Part shown: positions 1 through 5,082 of the stretch, one piece after another
Numbering within the stretch: position 1 is the first letter of the stretch
How the letters are laid out: the number at the start of each line of letters is the position of its first letter
Source: a virus
Length of the DNA stretch: 5,082 nucleotides
IMG/VR virus record: IMGVR_UViG_3300029217_000081
Location: 1-5,082 of that record
Strand: one strand, 5' to 3'
The notes under the pieces: model-generated
Told to the model about the DNA's origin: nothing
The model's database searches: none
What the model saw: the letters and a program-made list of their open reading frames with translations, nothing else
Made by a program: the position numbers and the translations under genes

Positions 1-99
1 TTTTTTTTTTCAGCGGTTATCGCCGCAACAAAACGAAGAAACTTATTGCTTACTAATAATCTGCTCTGTATCGTATTCTAAGGCACTTACCTGCTTCAC
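1..99. repeat. Terminal direct repeat, copy 1 (wrap-around of a circular genome; unit length 4983 bp)
   Basis: Bases 1..99 are identical to 4984..5082 by direct base-by-base comparison. The repeat runs to the window edge, so its length is set by the window or assembly. It includes the 3' end of the Zot-like CDS (43..99 = 5026..5082). Confidence 0.95.
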
Positions 100-657
100 G
101 GATTTGGGGATGGTATACCACCGCGCCCGCCCCGCCTTACGCACCGTATTGACCAGTTCTTGGCCTCCCTCGGGGCGATGTTCCATAGCGATACAGGAGC
201 GATAGGGAGTGAGACGACAGAACCAGCCAATACGGTTGCAGAGATAAATGCGGTCACAGAGGTCACGAATCTTTTTATCAAAATCCATGGTCTGAGAAGA
301 TACAATAATCGTCAAATGATATTTGCGCTGCATCTTGAAAAACTCAACTGCTTCACGGGGCATAGTTTTAAAATCACGGTTAGAGTGCAACACACCAATT
401 TCATCGATGAGAATAAGGGAATCAGGGAGAAAAGTTTGTTTCCAGTATTCGGCCTCTAACTCGTAACCAATACCCATATTACTATAGATAAGACCCTTAT
501 TAGCACGTAGCCACTTATCAGCAACACGAGACATATACAGAGACTTGCCAGAGCCTTTTGAACCAACAACAGCCTCAAGTTTGTAGGGGTTTTTGCAATA
601 GTTATCGATATAAACAAAAAGCCAGCAAATGCAAAAGATAAGAATACCATAAAGCAT
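43..657 (-). CDS. Zot / pI-like P-loop NTPase (filamentous-phage assembly/morphogenesis ATPase), 204 aa, with an N-terminal hydrophobic segment
   Basis: Walker A is GSKGSGKS (aa 32-39) and Walker B is LILIDEIG, followed by IIVSSQ. Size and position (last gene before the intergenic region) match inovirus gene I/Zot. The SD AAAGG lies 10 nt upstream of the ATG at 657. Residues 1-16 (MLYGILIFCICWLFVY) are hydrophobic. The stop is TAA at 43..45. Confidence 0.75.
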   Translation of the reverse strand: MLYGILIFCICWLFVYIDNYCKNPYKLEAVVGSKGSGKSLYMSRVADKWLRANKGLIYSNMGIGYELEAEYWKQTFLPDSLILIDEIGVLHSNRDFKTMPREAVEFFKMQRKYHLTIIVSSQTMDFDKKIRDLCDRIYLCNRIGWFCRLTPYRSCIAMEHRPEGGQELVNTVRKAGRARWYTIPKSVKQVSALEYDTEQIISKQ

Positions 658-681: not shown

Positions 682-720
682 AAAACGTCGCCGACCATAA
701 AAAATGGTCGGCGGCGTTTT
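682..720 (-). terminator. Strong bidirectional rho-independent terminator immediately after the coat-protein candidate
   Basis: A perfect 10-bp stem (689..698 CGCCGACCAT pairing with 704..713 ATGGTCGGCG) has a 5-nt loop. It is extendable through a T/G wobble and the flanking A4CG / CGT4 (682..687 with 715..720) to about 17 bp. A T-tract follows the stem on both strands. Confidence 0.8.
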
Positions 721-730
721 CTCTAAATCA

Positions 731-859
731 TTAGGAGCGTCCAGGAATCCAGCGGCGGAGGATACGGAGAACGATGCCCGCGATAGTGAGAATCACGAAG
801 ACGAGGAGAATGGGCTGAGACTCATAGAAATCAATGAGCTGACCCATCCAAGTAATCAT
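731..859 (-). CDS. Major coat protein candidate (pVIII/Pf3-like), 42 aa from the ATG at 859; the open frame continues upstream to 925 with no other ATG
   Basis: Hand translation gives MITWMGQLIDFYESQPILLVFVILTIAGIVLRILRRWIPGRS. It has an acidic N-terminal part (D, E), one hydrophobic helix and a basic C-terminal tail with 4 Arg, which is the classic inovirus coat architecture. It is followed directly by a strong terminator, as gene VIII is in Ff. It is absent from the ORF track because it is under 60 aa. The true start is uncertain (see findings). Confidence 0.6.
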   Translation of the reverse strand: MITWMGQLIDFYESQPILLVFVILTIAGIVLRILRRWIPGRS

Positions 860-919
860 CGAAGTGAAGAACTCACCGACCAAGGAAAGCAGCGTGGCGA
901 GAATAGAAGCAGTAGGGCC

Positions 920-940
920 CTGAAGTCATCATCCTTTCAT
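920..940 (-). promoter_or_regulatory. Consensus Shine-Dalgarno (ATGAAAGGA) whose normal spacing points to a CAG codon in frame with the coat ORF
   Basis: On the minus strand, AAAGG is at 937..933, followed by 10 nt and then CAG at 922..920. The same AAAGG plus 10-11 nt precedes the ATG of five other genes (rep, ssb-like, 55-aa, 43-aa, Zot-like). The ATGAAAGG form is shared with the rep and ssb-like SD sites. Confidence 0.45.
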
Positions 941-1977: not shown

Positions 1978-3152
1978 CCGTCGACCGCCTTTCTAATAAG
2001 CATGCGGAGAAAGACAGCACCAAAACAAAGGAGAGAAACAGAAAAGAGAAACGTGCCTAAATTCTGGAAAAGAGCACCAAGAAGACCAGAAGCACCGGAG
2101 GCAATATCAGAATCAACAGAGGAAGCAGAATTCCAAGAATTCAAATCATTTTTGGAGTTTGTGAGAGTATCAGAATCAATATCAAACTCGTTAGTAATGG
2201 CATCTTGTAAATCCTCTGGAGAATCAGACAGCCAGCCACCAAGCTTAACGTCAGGCAAAAGAGAAGCAGGAACAAGGAGAGAAAAAGCGAAAGAAGCGGT
2301 AGTATCAAAGGCAGAAGCAGAATAAACAGGGGAAGAAGAAGGCTTTTGCACAAAAACAAAACCGATATCAGAAGAAGGAATAGTATATCCGGACGGATAA
2401 GGAACAAAAGAATGAGTCCCCAAAAGATAACGATTAGAATTGAGGTTAATATTCCTCAAGTTAGAATAAGCATTAGGAGGAACAATAAACGAAGAGTCAC
2501 CACCCTGTAAAACATAGCCACTTGCAGAAGAAGAAGTAGATTCACGGAATGCAAAAGGATATGAATAAAAGGGGGAAGAAAAAGTGAAAGAATCTAAAGT
2601 ATCAGTAGAAGAGCCAGAAGAAGAACCGGCAGTATTACCGAAAGAAAGAATACGGTCTGAACGGCTAAAAGAAGAAGTTAAAAAGCCATAAGTTCCAGAC
2701 GGTTGAGGAGAAGTAGAATAAACGCGAACAACAGAAGTTTGAGGGGAAAAGCCAAAACCAATAGGAAAAGAGGGAAGTTCAGACCAAAGACCAGAAGCAC
2801 CGCGAAGAGGATAAGGAAAAGCGCAAGCATAATCATAGGCTAAGCCAGAATCGTTAGCTAAATAAGAAACATCAAATGCATCCGTAGAATAAGAAATAGA
2901 ATACGGCAATGTATAAGAAGAGCCAGAAACAGCAATAGGAGAGCAAAGAAGCTCAAAACAATCTATACCACTGTAAATAAGCTTACGCCAAACAAACCAA
3001 GAACCATGATGACTATAAAAATCATCAAGAGAGGGCATATCCGCTTCCGTATCAGAAGCAGCCAAAGCCGAAACAGGAAGAGAAAAAGAGATAACCAGAG
3101 CCGCAACAAGGGCGGCGAATCGCGTCAAGAAAAACGCATGCTTTTTCTTCAA
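1974..3152 (-). CDS. pIII-like adsorption / minor coat protein candidate: secreted, Ser-rich, C-terminal membrane anchor (392 aa from TTG at 3152; the ORF is open to GTG at 3203)
   Basis: From the TTG start the N-terminus is (M)KKKHAFFLTRFAALVAALVISFSLPVSALA/ASD, a textbook signal peptide with an AxA site. AGGGGGG lies 8 nt upstream of the TTG. The C-terminus has a Gly-rich stretch followed by a TM helix and basic tail (LGTFLFSVSLLCFGAVFLRMLIRKAVDG), as in g3p. It is the largest structural-module ORF. The upstream GTG at 3203 lies only 6 nt from the tRNA 3' end and has no SD. Confidence 0.6.
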   Translation of the reverse strand: MKKKHAFFLTRFAALVAALVISFSLPVSALAASDTEADMPSLDDFYSHHGSWFVWRKLIYSGIDCFELLCSPIAVSGSSYTLPYSISYSTDAFDVSYLANDSGLAYDYACAFPYPLRGASGLWSELPSFPIGFGFSPQTSVVRVYSTSPQPSGTYGFLTSSFSRSDRILSFGNTAGSSSGSSTDTLDSFTFSSPFYSYPFAFRESTSSSASGYVLQGGDSSFIVPPNAYSNLRNINLNSNRYLLGTHSFVPYPSGYTIPSSDIGFVFVQKPSSSPVYSASAFDTTASFAFSLLVPASLLPDVKLGGWLSDSPEDLQDAITNEFDIDSDTLTNSKNDLNSWNSASSVDSDIASGASGLLGALFQNLGTFLFSVSLLCFGAVFLRMLIRKAVDG

Positions 3153-3208: not shown

Positions 3209-3282
3209 TGGTTGCGGGCGATAGATTCGAACTACCAAATCAAGGCTCAGAACCTTGTGTGTTACCATTACACCAACCCGCC
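3209..3282 (-). tRNA. Full-length tRNA, anticodon CUG (Gln by anticodon), with encoded CCA and an unpaired G1/A72
   Basis: The minus strand reads GGCGGGT TG GTGT AATGGTA ACAC A CAAGG TTCTGAG CCTTG ATTT GGTAG TTCGAAT CTATC GCCCGCA A CCA (74 nt). U8, A14, G18G19, G53-C61 and the TTCGAAT T-loop are all present. It has a 4-bp D stem, 5-bp anticodon and T stems, and a 7-nt anticodon loop with CTG at 34-36. Acceptor pairs 2-71 to 6-67 are Watson-Crick, 7-66 is U/G and 1-72 is a G/A mismatch. Confidence 0.85.
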
Positions 3283-3342: not shown

Positions 3343-3585
3343 TTAGACTTCCTCAATTCCAAGCAAATAGCCGTTGCGGTCAAAGTCCAGATCGTACATA
3401 GCGCCAACAACGATGAGCGCATACGGCATCATCCAAGATTCGACATTGATTCTATCAACCTGAACGCCGGAGTTATCATCGTTTGCGCGCATGTCAAACT
3501 CTGCCATGATGGTTGTAAAATCATAGTCTTTGCCTGCTTTTGACTTGCCAGCGCGGTGGGACTTACCAACTACAGTGACCTTCAT
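3343..3585 (-). CDS. Putative ssDNA-binding protein (gene V analogue), 80 aa
   Basis: The call rests on position immediately after rep, size (Ff gVp is 87 aa), a basic N-terminal strand region (MKVTVVGKSHRAGKSKAGK) and a beta-rich pattern. The SD ATGAAAGGATGG lies 11 nt (after AAAGG) from the ATG at 3585. It is based on synteny and composition only, not on a recognised motif. Confidence 0.5.
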   Translation of the reverse strand: MKVTVVGKSHRAGKSKAGKDYDFTTIMAEFDMRANDDNSGVQVDRINVESWMMPYALIVVGAMYDLDFDRNGYLLGIEEV

Positions 3586-3603: not shown

Positions 3604-4740
3604 TCAGAATAAAGATATATCATCAAACCCATCTGCACTAAAGGGAGAGGGGTCTTCAACAACTTCACGGAACTCCTCAACAGCAATGCGCGAAGACTCA
3701 GCGAATTGAGATACTTCCTGTGTCAACGCCAAAGGGGAGAACGGAAGACGCTCATTATAATACTGTTCCCACTTACAACAAGCAAGGAAGAGCAGCTCAG
3801 GACGATAAAGCAGGATATCAATGATACGATGACCAAAGATATTCGTAACATAAGACATTTTCTGTTCTTCGGTATGAATAGAAACGGAAAATTTCTTAGC
3901 AAGGTCATCACTAAGGGGATGCCAAAAGTCATCAGTGTAATGAATGCCACGGGCTTCGATATCGGTCACGAACTGCATATCTTCCCAGCCATCGGGAAGA
4001 AGAGTTTCATTTCCGTAACGATTCCAGACTTTACGAAGATAGGAGAAAAGCTTCTCAGGGTCTTCATAGTAAAACCAGAAAAGCGGAGACGGGTCATAGA
4101 CGGAACGAGAACCAGAACGCACACGAGAAGTAAACTTAAATTCAATCTCGTAACGAATGATATAGGAATCATCAGGGCAATCCAGAAACTCACCAGAAGC
4201 CGTACAAAGCTTTTTTTCAGGGTCTTGCAGGGACTTATTATAGATACGGCAGAAGACAGCAGAAGACGTTCTACGACCGATATAAACGGTAGTGGAATCG
4301 CCGTAGCCCTGATACATGACCTTGCGAACCTTACGGGCTTTTTCAGGGTAATTCATATCATCGACAGAAGCAGAAATAACACCCAAATAAAACTCGCGCC
4401 ACCGTTGCTTTGTCATAACAACATCGAAGCAAAAGTCGAGACGAGAGAAGTGACCAAATTCGTGACCATCCTGCATCAGTGAAGCGAGCCGCGGCAATGT
4501 GGGACGGAAAAGCTCACAACCATGACCGGACACTTGCAAAGAGTGCGGAGACTGTTTCGCGCCGTTGTTCGGCTTAAAGAAAAGGCCCGCAGGGGAATTG
4601 TAAGGGGAATTCTCACTTGCGTTGGAAGTCTGCACAAAGTGCAAATCACACTGAGCAAGAGCATCTTCGATTTTGGAAATAGAGATTGAACCCTGCTCAA
4701 AAGCAAAAGTAACATAGTCAAGTTTAACAACCGTTTTCAT
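3604..4740 (-). CDS. Rolling-circle replication initiator, Rep_trans family (pT181 RepC/RepD-like; PF02486-type), 378 aa from the ATG at 4740
   Basis: Motif series typical of Rep_trans proteins: KLDYVTFAF, LQVSGHGCELF, FSRLDFCFDV, TVYIGRRTSSAVFCRIYNKS, IRYEIEFKF. The ATG at 4740 has the SD AAAGGTGG at optimal spacing. The GTG at 4752 listed in the ORF track sits inside that SD, so the ATG is preferred. The stop is TGA at 3604..3606. Confidence 0.85.
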   Translation of the reverse strand: MKTVVKLDYVTFAFEQGSISISKIEDALAQCDLHFVQTSNASENSPYNSPAGLFFKPNNGAKQSPHSLQVSGHGCELFRPTLPRLASLMQDGHEFGHFSRLDFCFDVVMTKQRWREFYLGVISASVDDMNYPEKARKVRKVMYQGYGDSTTVYIGRRTSSAVFCRIYNKSLQDPEKKLCTASGEFLDCPDDSYIIRYEIEFKFTSRVRSGSRSVYDPSPLFWFYYEDPEKLFSYLRKVWNRYGNETLLPDGWEDMQFVTDIEARGIHYTDDFWHPLSDDLAKKFSVSIHTEEQKMSYVTNIFGHRIIDILLYRPELLFLACCKWEQYYNERLPFSPLALTQEVSQFAESSRIAVEEFREVVEDPSPFSADGFDDISLF

Positions 4741-4771: not shown

Positions 4772-4800
4772 ATGTTACCGCAATATGAAGGAGTTGTCAA
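4772..4800 (-). promoter_or_regulatory. Sigma-70/SigA-type promoter driving rep and probably the whole operon
   Basis: On the minus strand: TTGACA (4800..4795), a 17-nt spacer and TAACAT (4777..4772). The -10 ends about 30 nt upstream of the rep ATG and the promoter sits immediately downstream of a terminator. Confidence 0.7.
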
Positions 4801-4810
4801 GAGGAAATTT

Positions 4811-4842
4811 CAAAAAGGTGGGCGTATTACACACACGCCCAC
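4811..4842 (-). terminator. Rho-independent terminator closing the circular transcription unit, just upstream of the rep promoter
   Basis: The minus strand reads GTGGGCG TGTGTGTAATA CGCCCAC CTTTTTG. The 7-bp GC-rich stem (4842..4836 with 4824..4818) is extendable by T-A and G/T pairs and is followed by a T5 tract. Confidence 0.65.
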
Positions 4843-4879
4843 CGGCTCGCGCCGTCACGGCAGTCACTACGTATCGAGA

Positions 4880-4983: not shown

Positions 4984-5082
4984 TTTTTTTTTTCAGCGGT
5001 TATCGCCGCAACAAAACGAAGAAACTTATTGCTTACTAATAATCTGCTCTGTATCGTATTCTAAGGCACTTACCTGCTTCAC
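4984..5082. repeat. Terminal direct repeat, copy 2 (same sequence as 1..99; not a second gene copy)
   Basis: It is identical to 1..99. Bases 5026..5082 re-present the 3' end of the Zot-like CDS. Confidence 0.95.

What the first reader, a model, noticed from the sequence alone, without database searches (positions are those of the whole stretch)
731..940. Orphan Shine-Dalgarno: consensus spacing lands on CAG, in frame with a coat-protein ORF that has no properly placed ATG
Five genes here start with AAAGG + 10-11 nt + ATG. These are rep (16 nt from the first A), ssb-like (16), 43-aa (15), 55-aa (15) and Zot-like (15). Three of the SD sites share the longer form ATGAAAGG. The sixth such site (937..933) is followed after 10 nt by CAG (922..920). 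That CAG is the second codon after two in-frame TGA stops. It opens a 63-codon frame encoding QGPTASILATLLSLVGEFFTS-MITWMGQLIDFYESQPILLVFVILTIAGIVLRILRRWIPGRS. This is a procoat-like layout: a hydrophobic leader, an acidic loop, a TM helix and a basic tail. The only ATG in this frame (859) has only a weak GGTGAG 12 nt upstream and no upstream stop overlap for coupling. The ATGATG directly after the SD is 0-3 nt away, too close, and opens a 19-codon dead-end frame. With a co-encoded CUG-anticodon tRNA carrying initiator-like features, the speculative reading is phage-specific initiation of the most abundant virion protein at CAG. Alternatives are initiation at ATG 859 giving a leaderless Pf3-like 42-aa coat, a frameshift from the ATGATG frame, or a sequencing indel near GGGCCC (919..914).
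Basis: inference. Interest (0 to 1): 0.8.

Follow-up and report, generated by a model that had tools for sequence, protein, structure and literature searches.

The report
Phage tRNA that starts translation at CAG
A 5-kb gut filamentous phage has a small coat-type gene with no normal start codon, and it carries its own tRNA with initiator-like ends whose anticodon matches the CAG at the start position; in related phages the anticodon and this codon change together, which points to a natural, virus-encoded way of starting a protein at a non-AUG codon.

Summary
On the minus strand, AAAGG (937..933) is followed after 10 nt by CAG (922..920). That is the spacing used by five ATG genes here. CAG opens a 63-codon frame just after TGA TGA.

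The frame is not an assembly error. 43 related genomes keep the same layout, CAG is invariant, indels after it are multiples of 3, and substitutions are mostly synonymous only in this frame.

Homologues in tRNA-less relatives begin with SD+ATG/GTG within one residue of this Q.

Every complete relative with the orphan start carries one tRNA with a 1x72 mismatch and G2:C71/C3:G70, the formylase determinants of bacterial initiator tRNA.

The decisive evidence is covariation between anticodon and start codon:
- CUG with CAG in four lineages.
- UUG with CAA in three genomes.
- CGU with ACG in three inovirus genomes and one tailed-phage fragment.
- CUA with UAG in one genome.
- No tRNA with ATG/GTG.

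One blind prediction was met: a tRNA in the complete genome of a CAG-start lineage.

The best reading is a phage-encoded initiator-type tRNA that starts the coat-type protein at CAG, probably with (formyl-)glutamine. Charging, formylation and P-site use are inferred. I found no prior report. The 3-GC anticodon-stem rule is mostly not kept.

The parts
933..937 (-). Shine-Dalgarno core AAAGG of the coat-type gene. The extended conserved block is GAAAGG[A/G]TGATG, 938..927.
   Evidence: Same motif and spacing as five ATG genes of the window. The block is conserved in 43 genomes.
920..922 (-). CAG, the proposed non-AUG start codon. It lies 10 nt after AAAGG.
   Evidence: Invariant in 43 genomes while the preceding codon varies (CTT/TTT/CAT). 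It is replaced by CAA, ACG or TAG where the tRNA anticodon is UUG, CGU or CUA, and by ATG/GTG where no tRNA is present.
731..922 (-). 63-codon coat-type ORF (QGPTAS...RRWIPGRS) plus TAA. The layout is an amphipathic N-terminal half, a transmembrane helix and a basic tail.
   Evidence: Translation. Coding signature from the first codon. Homologues aligned. No family hit, so 'major coat' is inferred.
926..931 (-). Two in-frame stops, TGA TGA, directly upstream of CTT CAG.
   Evidence: The first TGA is conserved. The second is TGT/TGC in some relatives.
873..932 (-). Out-of-frame ATGATG and its 19-codon dead-end frame.
   Evidence: The peptide is not conserved: synonymous to non-synonymous codon differences are 520:2671. 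This is not part of the mechanism proposed.
857..859 (-). First in-frame ATG (Met-22). A second in-frame ATG lies at 847..845. This is the rival start.
   Evidence: It is GTG in L026 and L038, and 21 conserved codons lie upstream. Only GGTGAG lies 12 nt upstream.
682..716 (-). Strong hairpin plus U-run after the coat-type gene (terminator-like).
   Evidence: Fold energy -28.6 kcal/mol, z = -8.9. Conserved in relatives. Not flagged by the simple terminator scan.
3209..3282 (-). tRNA with anticodon CUG (3250..3248). It has a G1xA72 mismatch, G2:C71, C3:G70, A73, an encoded CCA and an anticodon stem of A29:U41/G30:C40/G31:C39.
   Evidence: ARAGORN. Rfam tRNA at 48.4 bits, with pair 1:72 flagged as non-canonical. 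Family comparison.

Best explanation
The window is a 4983-nt circular gut inovirus. Its small coat-type gene (922..731, minus strand) has no AUG/GUG/UUG start.

Proposed mechanism:
1. The ribosome is positioned by the normal Shine-Dalgarno sequence (AAAGG, 937..933).
2. The P-site codon is CAG (922..920).
3. CAG is read by the phage's own tRNA (3282..3209, anticodon CUG).
4. This tRNA has the acceptor end of a bacterial initiator tRNA: a 1x72 mismatch, G2:C71, C3:G70 and A73. It would therefore be formylated and used by IF2 rather than EF-Tu.
5. With a CUG anticodon it would be charged with glutamine, so the protein would begin with (formyl-)Gln: Q-GPTASILATLL...
6. Synthesis of this virion-type protein thus depends on a phage-made initiator and is invisible to standard gene callers.

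Shown by computation:
- The orphan SD and its spacing.
- Coding from CAG onward.
- Co-occurrence of the tRNA with the orphan start.
- Covariation between anticodon and start codon.
- The 1x72 mismatch.

Inferred: aminoacylation, formylation, P-site use, the identity of the N-terminal residue, and that the protein is the major coat protein.
For: 1. Layout. AAAGG+10 nt+CAG matches AAAGG+10/11 nt+ATG at rep, ssb, the 43-aa gene, the 55-aa gene and Zot.

2. Not an error. 43 genomes at 81-99% identity keep GAAAGG..N..CAG, and CAG is invariant.

3. Coding from CAG.
- Segment lengths are 69, 66 or 63 nt, all multiples of 3.
- Variable columns by codon position are 11/6/18.
- Synonymous to non-synonymous codon differences are 1914:1371 in this frame, against 520:2671 and 7:3003 in the other two frames.

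4. Homologues in tRNA-less relatives (L045, L046, L047, L215, L234/L235, L241-L243) start with SD+ATG or GTG within one residue of the Q.

5. One tRNA is found in every full-length clade genome.
- On 31 distinct tRNAs, 92.9% of cells are paired.
- The covariation score is 0.534 against 0.160 for shuffles (0/500 reach it).
- Pair 1:72 is unpaired in 30/31.
- 2:71 is always G-C and 3:70 always C-G.

6. Anticodon and start codon covary.
- CUG with CAG: the window clade with L237, L042/L043, L044 (also L165, and the partial, tRNA-less contig L202), and L213.
- UUG with CAA: L214, L232, L233.
- CGU with ACG: L236, L238, L240, and the terminase gene of the tailed-phage fragment L244.
- CUA with UAG: L204.

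7. A prediction was tested. Partial contigs L194/L195 had a CAG-start coat and no tRNA. The 9.4-kb relative L213 carries tRNA(CUG) with C1xA72 and the full G29-31:C39-41 stem.

8. Internal Gln codon usage stays CAG-biased in the UUG-type genomes, so the anticodon tracks only the start codon.

9. There is an engineered precedent. Initiator tRNAs with altered anticodons start translation at the complementary codon, and the CUA version is charged mainly with Gln (10.1101/524249; PMC11744186).
Against: - No experimental data exist.
- The three consecutive G-C pairs of the anticodon stem, the other hallmark of initiator tRNAs, are mostly absent.
  - The window has au/GC/GC. That variant is known in mycoplasmas and alpha-proteobacteria (PMC5389676).
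  - Most clade members have A:U/C:G/G:C or weaker.
- The D stem has U11:A24. By my own knowledge, bacterial tRNAfMet typically has A11:U24.
- Two CGU-type tRNAs (L238, L240) have a U1-A72 pair rather than a mismatch, with U73.
- A 1x72 mismatch could also simply favour Gln charging.
- L240 and L204 have an in-frame TTG directly before the special codon. In those two genomes a TTG start followed by decoding of codon 2 is possible.
- L214, L232 and L233 have an in-frame ATG 6 codons downstream.
- The host is unknown. The only hint is that two contigs were binned in Roseburia and Clostridia MAGs. Whether its GlnRS or GluRS/GatCAB would charge this tRNA is also unknown.
- The 'major coat' identity has no family support for the window protein.
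Confidence: 0.8

Rival explanations
1. Translation starts at the first in-frame ATG (859) and gives a 42-aa leaderless coat. The upstream 21 codons are untranslated leader, and the tRNA is unrelated.
For: ATG 859 is the first canonical start, and GGTGAG lies 12 nt upstream. Gene callers use internal starts of this kind in L232 and L233.
Against: - The 21 upstream codons evolve mainly by synonymous change, only in this frame, with indels that are multiples of 3.
- They align with the N-termini of ATG-started homologues.
- ATG 859 is GTG in L026 and L038.
- L042 and L043 have no in-frame ATG until inside the membrane helix.
- This reading does not explain the anticodon/codon covariation.
Confidence: 0.04
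2. The host's ordinary fMet-tRNA starts weakly at a non-canonical codon near the SD (CAG itself, or ATT 904 or CTG 892). The phage tRNA is an ordinary elongator kept for codon supply or as a recombination site.
For: Weak initiation from non-canonical codons is known in bacteria (my own knowledge). ACG, used in three lineages, is a near-cognate of AUG. The 3-GC rule is not kept by most of these tRNAs.
Against: - CAG, CAA and UAG each match AUG at no more than one position.
- The codon tracks the anticodon across four codon classes.
- Internal codon usage does not track the anticodon.
- Pair 1:72 is unpaired in 30/31 distinct tRNAs, and ordinary phage tRNA-Gln(CUG) genes have U1-A72.
- The tRNA bodies diverge fast with compensatory changes, unlike an attachment site that copies a host gene.
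Confidence: 0.07
3. Translation starts at the out-of-frame ATG (929) and shifts +1 into the coat frame within the first few codons.
For: An ATG or TTG lies 7 nt upstream of the special codon in the window clade, L237, L238, L240 and L042.
Against: - There is no conserved slippery site. The codons after the ATG are ACT TCA, TTT TCA, ACA TCA or CTT TCA.
- The ATG abuts the SD with 3 nt of spacing.
- L043, L213, L214, L232 and L233 have no such start codon.
- This reading does not explain the tRNA covariation.
Confidence: 0.03
4. The tRNA is an elongator (or, for CUA, a suppressor) that decodes the second codon after an unrecognised start codon immediately upstream.
For: L204 has TTG TAG and L240 has TTG ACG in frame at workable SD spacing.
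Against: In the window and most lineages the preceding codon is CTT, TTT, CAT, TCT, TGT, CCG, TTA or even TGA (L238). None of these is a start codon. A 1x72 mismatch is unfavourable for EF-Tu (my own knowledge).
Confidence: 0.04
5. A sequencing or assembly indel near GGGCCC (919..914) destroyed an ATGATG-started gene.
For: Removing one base would join ATGATG to the coat frame.
Against: About 50 independent assemblies from different studies keep exactly the same frame relationship, and in most of them GGGCCC is a different sequence.
Confidence: 0.005

Closest known systems
Bacterial initiator tRNA (tRNAfMet)
   Same: It shares the mismatch at 1:72, G2:C71 and C3:G70 (the formylase determinants, PMC5389676), A73, and an encoded CCA. 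In most relatives the anticodon loop is CUCUGAA, which is the tRNAfMet loop CUCAUAA with only the anticodon changed (the tRNAfMet loop is from my own knowledge). The relative L213 also has the three G-C pairs.
   Different: The anticodon is CUG, not CAU. The 3-GC stem is mostly not kept. The D stem has U11:A24. The gene is carried by a 5-kb phage. It would carry Gln, not Met.
Engineered anticodon-mutant initiator tRNAs (amber initiator tRNAfMet-CUA; i-tRNA variants for non-AUG start codons)
   Same: A changed anticodon retargets initiation to the complementary codon. The CUA version starts at UAG and is charged mainly with glutamine (10.1101/524249; PMC11744186). L204 looks like a natural CUA/UAG pair.
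   Different: Those are laboratory constructs on the E. coli tRNAfMet body. Here the pair (tRNA plus start codon) is natural, virus-encoded, and conserved and co-evolving in several phage lineages.
Phage-encoded elongator and suppressor tRNAs (codon-usage supply; stop-codon recoding in gut phages)
   Same: The phage carries a tRNA that changes how its own late or structural genes are decoded.
   Different: Those act in elongation or at stop codons, and they have paired 1:72 ends (examples). Here the tRNA matches one codon at a gene head, and internal codon usage is unaffected.
Non-AUG starts read by the normal initiator (GUG, UUG, AUU of infC)
   Same: An SD-led start at a codon other than AUG. 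The window itself uses TTG for its 390-aa secreted protein.
   Different: Those are near-cognates of AUG read by tRNAfMet. CAG, CAA and UAG are not near-cognates, and a dedicated tRNA is present.
Leaderless inovirus coat proteins (Pf3 type)
   Same: A small protein with an amphipathic N-terminal part, one membrane helix and a basic tail, with no signal peptide. It is followed by a strong hairpin.
   Different: There is no sequence-family or structure match. The resemblance to Pf3 comes from my own knowledge only.

Membership tests
Bacterial initiator tRNA | Mismatch (or weak pair) at 1:72 | tested here: met
   The window has G1xA72. The pair is unpaired in 30 of 31 distinct tRNAs and is never G-C. 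Position 1 is G, C, A or U against A72 or C72.
Bacterial initiator tRNA | G2:C71 and C3:G70 (formylase determinants; PMC5389676) | tested here: met
   Invariant in 31/31. Note that my extraction pattern required GCGGG/CC[CT]GC, but ARAGORN found exactly one tRNA per genome and each one fitted.
Bacterial initiator tRNA | Three consecutive G-C pairs 29:41, 30:40, 31:39 | tested here: not met
   The window has A:U/G:C/G:C, the au/GC/GC variant that PMC5389676 lists for mycoplasmas and alpha-proteobacteria. Most clade members have A:U/C:G/G:C or weaker. Only L213 has the full set.
Bacterial initiator tRNA | CAU anticodon and methionine identity | tested here: not met
   The anticodon is CUG. Relatives have UUG, CGU or CUA.
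Bacterial initiator tRNA | A11:U24 in the D stem (my own knowledge) | tested here: not met
   U11:A24 in 31/31.
Bacterial initiator tRNA | Formylation by Fmt, binding by IF2, P-site entry, exclusion from EF-Tu | not testable with these tools
   Biochemical properties. They are inferred only from the acceptor end.
Elongator tRNA-Gln | Gln anticodon (CUG/UUG) | tested here: met
Elongator tRNA-Gln | Paired U1-A72 (or A1-U72) end, as in ordinary phage tRNA-Gln genes. G73 in E. coli (my own knowledge). | tested here: not met
   The window has G1xA72 and A73. Ordinary CUG tRNAs of large phages (L151, L152, L156-L160, L163) have U1-A72, and L098 has A1-U72 with G73.
SD-led bacterial start site | SD at working distance from the first codon | tested here: met
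   AAAGG+10 nt, as at five ATG genes. In other lineages a GGAGG-type core lies 5-9 nt before the codon.
SD-led bacterial start site | AUG/GUG/UUG at that position | tested here: not met
   CAG, invariant in 43 genomes.
Inovirus major coat protein | Match to a coat-protein family or to a solved coat structure | tested here: not met
   No Pfam, PHROG or PDB match for the window protein or its alignment. Only the unrelated CAG-started protein of L042 hits phrog_2186, 'virion structural protein', at 7.7e-6.
Inovirus major coat protein | Small size, one membrane helix, basic C-terminal tail, location in the structural module | tested here: met
   63 aa, ending ...LRILRRWIPGRS. It lies directly upstream of the Zot-like assembly ATPase and is followed by a strong hairpin.

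The most novel reading that the evidence does not exclude
Phages encode dedicated initiator tRNAs whose anticodon has been switched (CUG, UUG, CGU, CUA, perhaps CCU and CAG). They place the matching non-AUG codon at the head of key structural genes: the coat-type protein, a g3p-like secreted protein, and in one tailed phage the terminase. This would be a natural, virus-private translation-initiation channel. It would make these proteins start with Gln or Thr instead of Met, make their synthesis depend on the phage tRNA, and hide the genes from annotation.
Probability: 0.7. Interest if true: 0.95.

Novelty: categorically new. Interest (0 to 1): 0.93.

Why it matters
All known natural bacterial translation starts with tRNAfMet reading AUG or a near-cognate codon. 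Retargeting initiation by changing the initiator's anticodon has been done only in the laboratory. A natural, co-evolving pair of tRNA and start codon carried by 5-kb phages would have four consequences.

1. It would be the first natural orthogonal initiation system.
2. It would explain why a core virion gene goes unannotated in these genomes. The GenBank records PQ006129 and PQ006175 and several Logan gene calls leave it blank.
3. It would supply ready-made parts for synthetic biology, namely several tRNA bodies that lack the 3-GC stem.
4. It raises testable questions: why a phage would want a non-Met N-terminus or tRNA-gated coat synthesis, and how initiation proceeds without the 3-GC stem.

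The compensatory CAG/CUG to CAA/UUG change makes the idea directly testable with a two-plasmid reporter.

Tried and rejected
- Alternative genetic code (TGA as sense): rejected. It would fuse rep to ssb through TGATGA, and all other genes use normal starts and stops.
- Family assignment of the coat-type protein: Pfam, PHROGs and the PDB profile search gave nothing meaningful for the window protein.
- A generic scan for SD-preceded codons at the heads of ORFs that lack a canonical start: it recovered the known sites but was too noisy on both strands to serve as an enrichment test. I did not use it as evidence.
- IMG/VR scan for UUG-anticodon tRNAs with the same 3' end: it returned only large phage contigs and no further L214-type inoviruses.
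- Scan for CUA-type tRNAs: it found only L204, so the UAG case is a singleton with a TTG-start alternative.
- Follow-up of initiator-like tRNAs with CCU or CAG anticodons in larger phages: inconclusive on partial loci. There is one possible AGG start, in L117.
- Genome-contig scan for hosts: it returned only two short MAG contigs (Roseburia sp. and a Clostridia bacterium), so the host assignment stays weak.
- Nine of the 10 permitted literature searches: none found a report of natural non-AUG initiator tRNAs in phages. Two searches served only for background on initiator tRNAs.
Full report
**What the window is.**
- The 5082 bases are a 4983-nt circular unit with a 99-nt terminal repeat. All genes lie on the minus strand.
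- The gene order is:
  - Rep_trans replication protein (4740..3604)
  - 80-aa ssb/RstB-like protein (3585..3343)
  - one tRNA (3282..3209)
  - 390-aa secreted protein that starts at TTG
  - 43-aa protein
  - 55-aa protein
  - 204-aa protein
  - 37-aa protein
  - the frame in question (922..731)
  - 204-aa Zot-like assembly ATPase (657..43)
- The nearest database relatives are uncultured 'Inovirus sp.' genomes from pig faeces at about 82% identity. More distant relatives come from rodent and lemur faeces.

**Check of the observation.**
- AAAGG occurs eight times on the gene strand, and six of those copies sit before gene heads.
- The first A lies 16 or 15 nt before the ATG of rep, ssb, the 43-aa gene, the 55-aa gene and Zot, and 15 nt before CAG 922.
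- The coat frame reads TGA TGA CTT CAG, followed by 63 codons.
- Two corrections are needed. A second in-frame ATG lies at 847, and the 'procoat leader' reading does not hold (see below).

**It is not an error, and it codes from CAG.**
- I collected 4 GenBank genomes, 37 IMG/VR genomes and 1 Logan genome of the same clade.
- All 43 genomes, the window included, keep an SD block, 8-10 nt, then CAG. In all but L237 the SD block is GAAAGG[A/G]TGATG.
- CAG never varies. The codon before it does vary (CTT, TTT, CAT), and the second TGA can be TGT or TGC.
- The stretch from CAG through the two codons at Met-22 is 69, 66 or 63 nt long, always a multiple of three.
- In 29 distinct sequences of the modal length:
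  - variable columns fall 11/6/18 on codon positions 1/2/3;
  - codon differences are 1914 synonymous to 1371 non-synonymous in the coat frame;
  - the other two frames give 520:2671 and 7:3003.
- A sequencing indel is therefore excluded, and the 21 codons upstream of Met-859 are translated.
- ATG 859 itself is GTG in two genomes.

**tRNA-less relatives use ATG at the same place.**
- Homologous proteins in L045, L047, L215, L234/L235 and L241-L243 start with a good SD, 4-8 nt, then ATG. L046 starts with GTG.
- In a 12-sequence alignment, the first residue of the orphan-start proteins lines up within one residue of these Met residues.
- The window protein is therefore a leaderless 63-residue protein with an amphipathic N-terminal half, a membrane helix and a basic tail. 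It is not a procoat with a cleaved leader.
- It has no Pfam, PHROG or PDB relative. 'Major coat protein' rests on architecture, on its position next to the Zot-like gene, and on the strong hairpin that follows it (-28.6 kcal/mol, z -8.9).

**The tRNA.**
- ARAGORN and Rfam both call a tRNA with anticodon CUG. Rfam scores it 48.4 bits and flags pair 1:72 as non-canonical.
- The sequence is GGCGGGU...GCCCGCA-ACCA. This gives G1xA72, G2:C71, C3:G70, G4:C69, A73 and an encoded CCA.
- Every full-length clade genome has exactly one such tRNA. Only short partial contigs lack it.
- On 31 distinct tRNAs from all lineages:
  - the cloverleaf is strongly supported, with 92.9% of cells paired;
  - the covariation score is 0.534 against 0.160 for shuffles, with 0/500 shuffles reaching it;
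  - 13 pairs show changes on both sides;
  - pair 1:72 is unpaired in 30 of 31, with G, C, A or U at position 1 against A72 or C72;
  - 2:71 and 3:70 are invariant.
- The second feature is mostly not kept here. The window has A:U/G:C/G:C, which is the au/GC/GC variant that paper lists for mycoplasmas and alpha-proteobacteria. Most clade members have A:U/C:G/G:C. Only L213 has the full set.
- U11:A24 is also unlike tRNAfMet (my own knowledge).
- Ordinary CUG-anticodon tRNAs in large phages have a paired U1-A72 end.

**The decisive evidence: anticodon and start codon change together.**

| tRNA anticodon | Genomes | Context at the gene head |
|---|---|---|
| CUG | L042, L043 (bajarodino viruses) | AAAGGGGG+8 nt+CAG GG[CA] GC[AT] AC[TA] TCT..., directly after the tRNA. 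The ORF is coat-like and unannotated in GenBank. It hits phrog_2186 'virion structural protein' at 7.7e-6, and its homologue in L180 has a signal peptide plus ATG. |
| CUG | L044; the partial contig L202 has the same coat head but no tRNA | GAAAGG+10 nt+CAG at the coat |
| CUG | L044, L165 | SD+CAG at the head of the g3p-like signal peptide |
| CUG | L237 | GGAAGGAGG+8 nt+CAG |
| UUG | L214, L232, L233 (Zot 74-75% identical to the window) | G1xA72 tRNA; GAAAGGGG+9 nt+CAA |
| CGU | L236, L238, L240 | SD+7-8 nt+ACG at the head of the homologous protein |
| CUA | L204 | U1xC72 tRNA; the second coat paralogue has GGAGGTGA+5 nt+TAG, while the first has SD+ATG |
| CGU | L244 (tailed-phage fragment) | C1xA72 tRNA; the terminase-like ORF opens stop-AGA-ACG with GGTGA+6 nt+ACG and no canonical start before its Walker A motif |

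- Of 43 more distant Zot-bearing inoviruses, 42 have no tRNA. All but one lineage of those whose coat homologue I could identify have Met or GTG starts.
- That one lineage (L194/L195) became the prediction test below.
- Inside genes, Gln codon usage stays CAG-biased in the UUG-type genomes (32:14, 34:13, 28:15). The anticodon therefore follows the start codon and not codon usage.

**A prediction that could have failed.**
- Two partial IMG/VR contigs (L194, L195) had a coat that opened with GAAAGGAAGGT+8 nt+CAG, and no tRNA.
- The hypothesis predicts that a complete genome of this lineage carries a CUG tRNA with a 1x72 mismatch.
- It carries tRNA(CUG) with C1xA72, A73 and the full G29G30G31:C39C40C41 stem.

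**Mechanism proposed.**
- The SD places the 30S subunit so that CAG 922 is in the P site.
- The phage tRNA pairs with CAG. It is presumably charged with Gln through its anticodon and formylated through its acceptor end.
- The protein would then start with (formyl-)Gln.
- This is the natural counterpart of laboratory initiator tRNAs with altered anticodons. Those start translation at the complementary codon, and the CUA version is charged mainly with glutamine (10.1101/524249; PMC11744186).
- Charging, formylation, IF2/P-site use and the N-terminal residue are inferences.

**Weak points.**
- The 3-GC rule and A11:U24 are not met.
- L238 and L240 have a U1-A72 pair and U73.
- L204 and L240 have an in-frame TTG directly before the special codon.
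- L214, L232 and L233 have an ATG six codons downstream.
- The host is known only through two MAG-binned contigs, from Roseburia sp. and a Clostridia bacterium.
- An out-of-frame ATG or TTG 7 nt upstream of the special codon recurs in five lineages and is unexplained.

**Rivals.**
- A Met-859 start, a +1 shift from ATG 929, weak initiation by the host initiator, decoding of a second codon, and an indel are each contradicted by the conservation and covariation data.
- Details are in the rival list. Together I give them about 0.2.

**Novelty.**
- Seven of the nine full-text searches looked for prior reports, using terms on initiator tRNA, inoviruses and filamentous phages, CAG start codons, phage-encoded initiators and start-codon reassignment. 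None found a report of a natural non-AUG initiator tRNA in a phage.
- The other two searches found background papers on initiator-tRNA features and on engineered systems.
- I therefore rate the finding as categorically new as a natural system. The underlying principle is known from engineered tRNAs, and the evidence here is comparative only.

Noticed in passing
L204:1334-1407 and L204:4190-4395: An inovirus from IMG genome 2700989228 carries a tRNA with anticodon CUA, a U1xC72 mismatch and A73. The second of its two coat paralogues has TAGGAGGTGA+ATTTG+TAG ACT ACT..., while the first has SD+ATG. This looks like a natural 'amber initiator'. The alternative is a start at the in-frame TTG directly before TAG, followed by suppression.
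   Followed up: partly
L244 (minus strand; tRNA at position 41 and ORF head at 2199 of the reverse complement): A 4.7-kb fragment of a tailed phage has a tRNA with anticodon CGU, C1xA72 and A73. Its terminase-large-subunit-like ORF opens stop-AGA-ACG, with GGTGA 6 nt upstream and no canonical start before the Walker A motif. The phenomenon may therefore extend beyond inoviruses.
   Followed up: partly
L061, L062, L071, L085, L090, L097, L117, L126, L128, L146, L149; L052, L127; L150, L154, L166: Larger phage contigs carry tRNAs with the same initiator-type ends (N1xA72, GCGGG.../...CCGCA-ACCA) but other anticodons: CCU, CAG, or (in jumbo phages) CUG. A quick look for matching SD-spaced start codons was inconclusive. 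There is one possible AGG start in L117 (minus strand, position 6321).
   Followed up: partly
L044:4890-4925 (minus strand) and L165 just downstream of its tRNA: In the L044 lineage the g3p-like secreted protein also seems to start at CAG. L044 has ATGAAAGG+ATGATTTAT+CAG ATT TTG AAA AAG. L165 has ACGGAGGTG+TTATT+CAG CGC AAG CTT. In each case CAG begins the signal peptide.
   Followed up: partly
window 3209-3282 compared with L001-L041: Phages with 94-99% identical Zot proteins carry two very different tRNA bodies. One type is in the window, L008, L014, L015, L021 and L036. The other is the GGCGGGGTGGTGCAAYGGTAGCAC... type. This suggests exchange of the tRNA module between otherwise near-identical genomes.
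   Followed up: no
window 927-929; the same offset in L237, L238, L240 and L042: An out-of-frame ATG (TTG in L042) lies exactly 7 nt upstream of the non-AUG start codon in five lineages, but not in L043, L213 or L214. Its role is unexplained. It could be part of an extended SD or a decoy start.
   Followed up: partly
L042:4483-4762, L043:4461-4640; L236, L237, L238 upstream of Zot: Public annotations and automatic gene calls leave the orphan-start coat gene blank. PHROGs has families for all eight other window proteins I scanned but none for this one.
   Followed up: yes
window 3144-3146 (minus strand): The 390-aa secreted g3p-like protein starts at TTG (AGGGGGGTG+TGCGAA+TTG AAG AAA AAG) with a clear signal peptide. 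The longer GTG-started ORF listed mechanically (3203) runs up to the end of the tRNA gene (3209) and is unlikely to be real.
   Followed up: partly
window 1-99 and 4984-5082: An exact 99-nt terminal repeat shows that the contig is a circular 4983-nt genome. The 3' end of the Zot-like gene lies inside the repeated segment.
   Followed up: yes
window 4772-4843 (minus strand): A TTGACA-17-TAACAT promoter-like site lies upstream of rep, preceded by an 11-bp G+C-rich hairpin with a T-run (4843..4817). This is probably the main regulatory and origin region.
   Followed up: no
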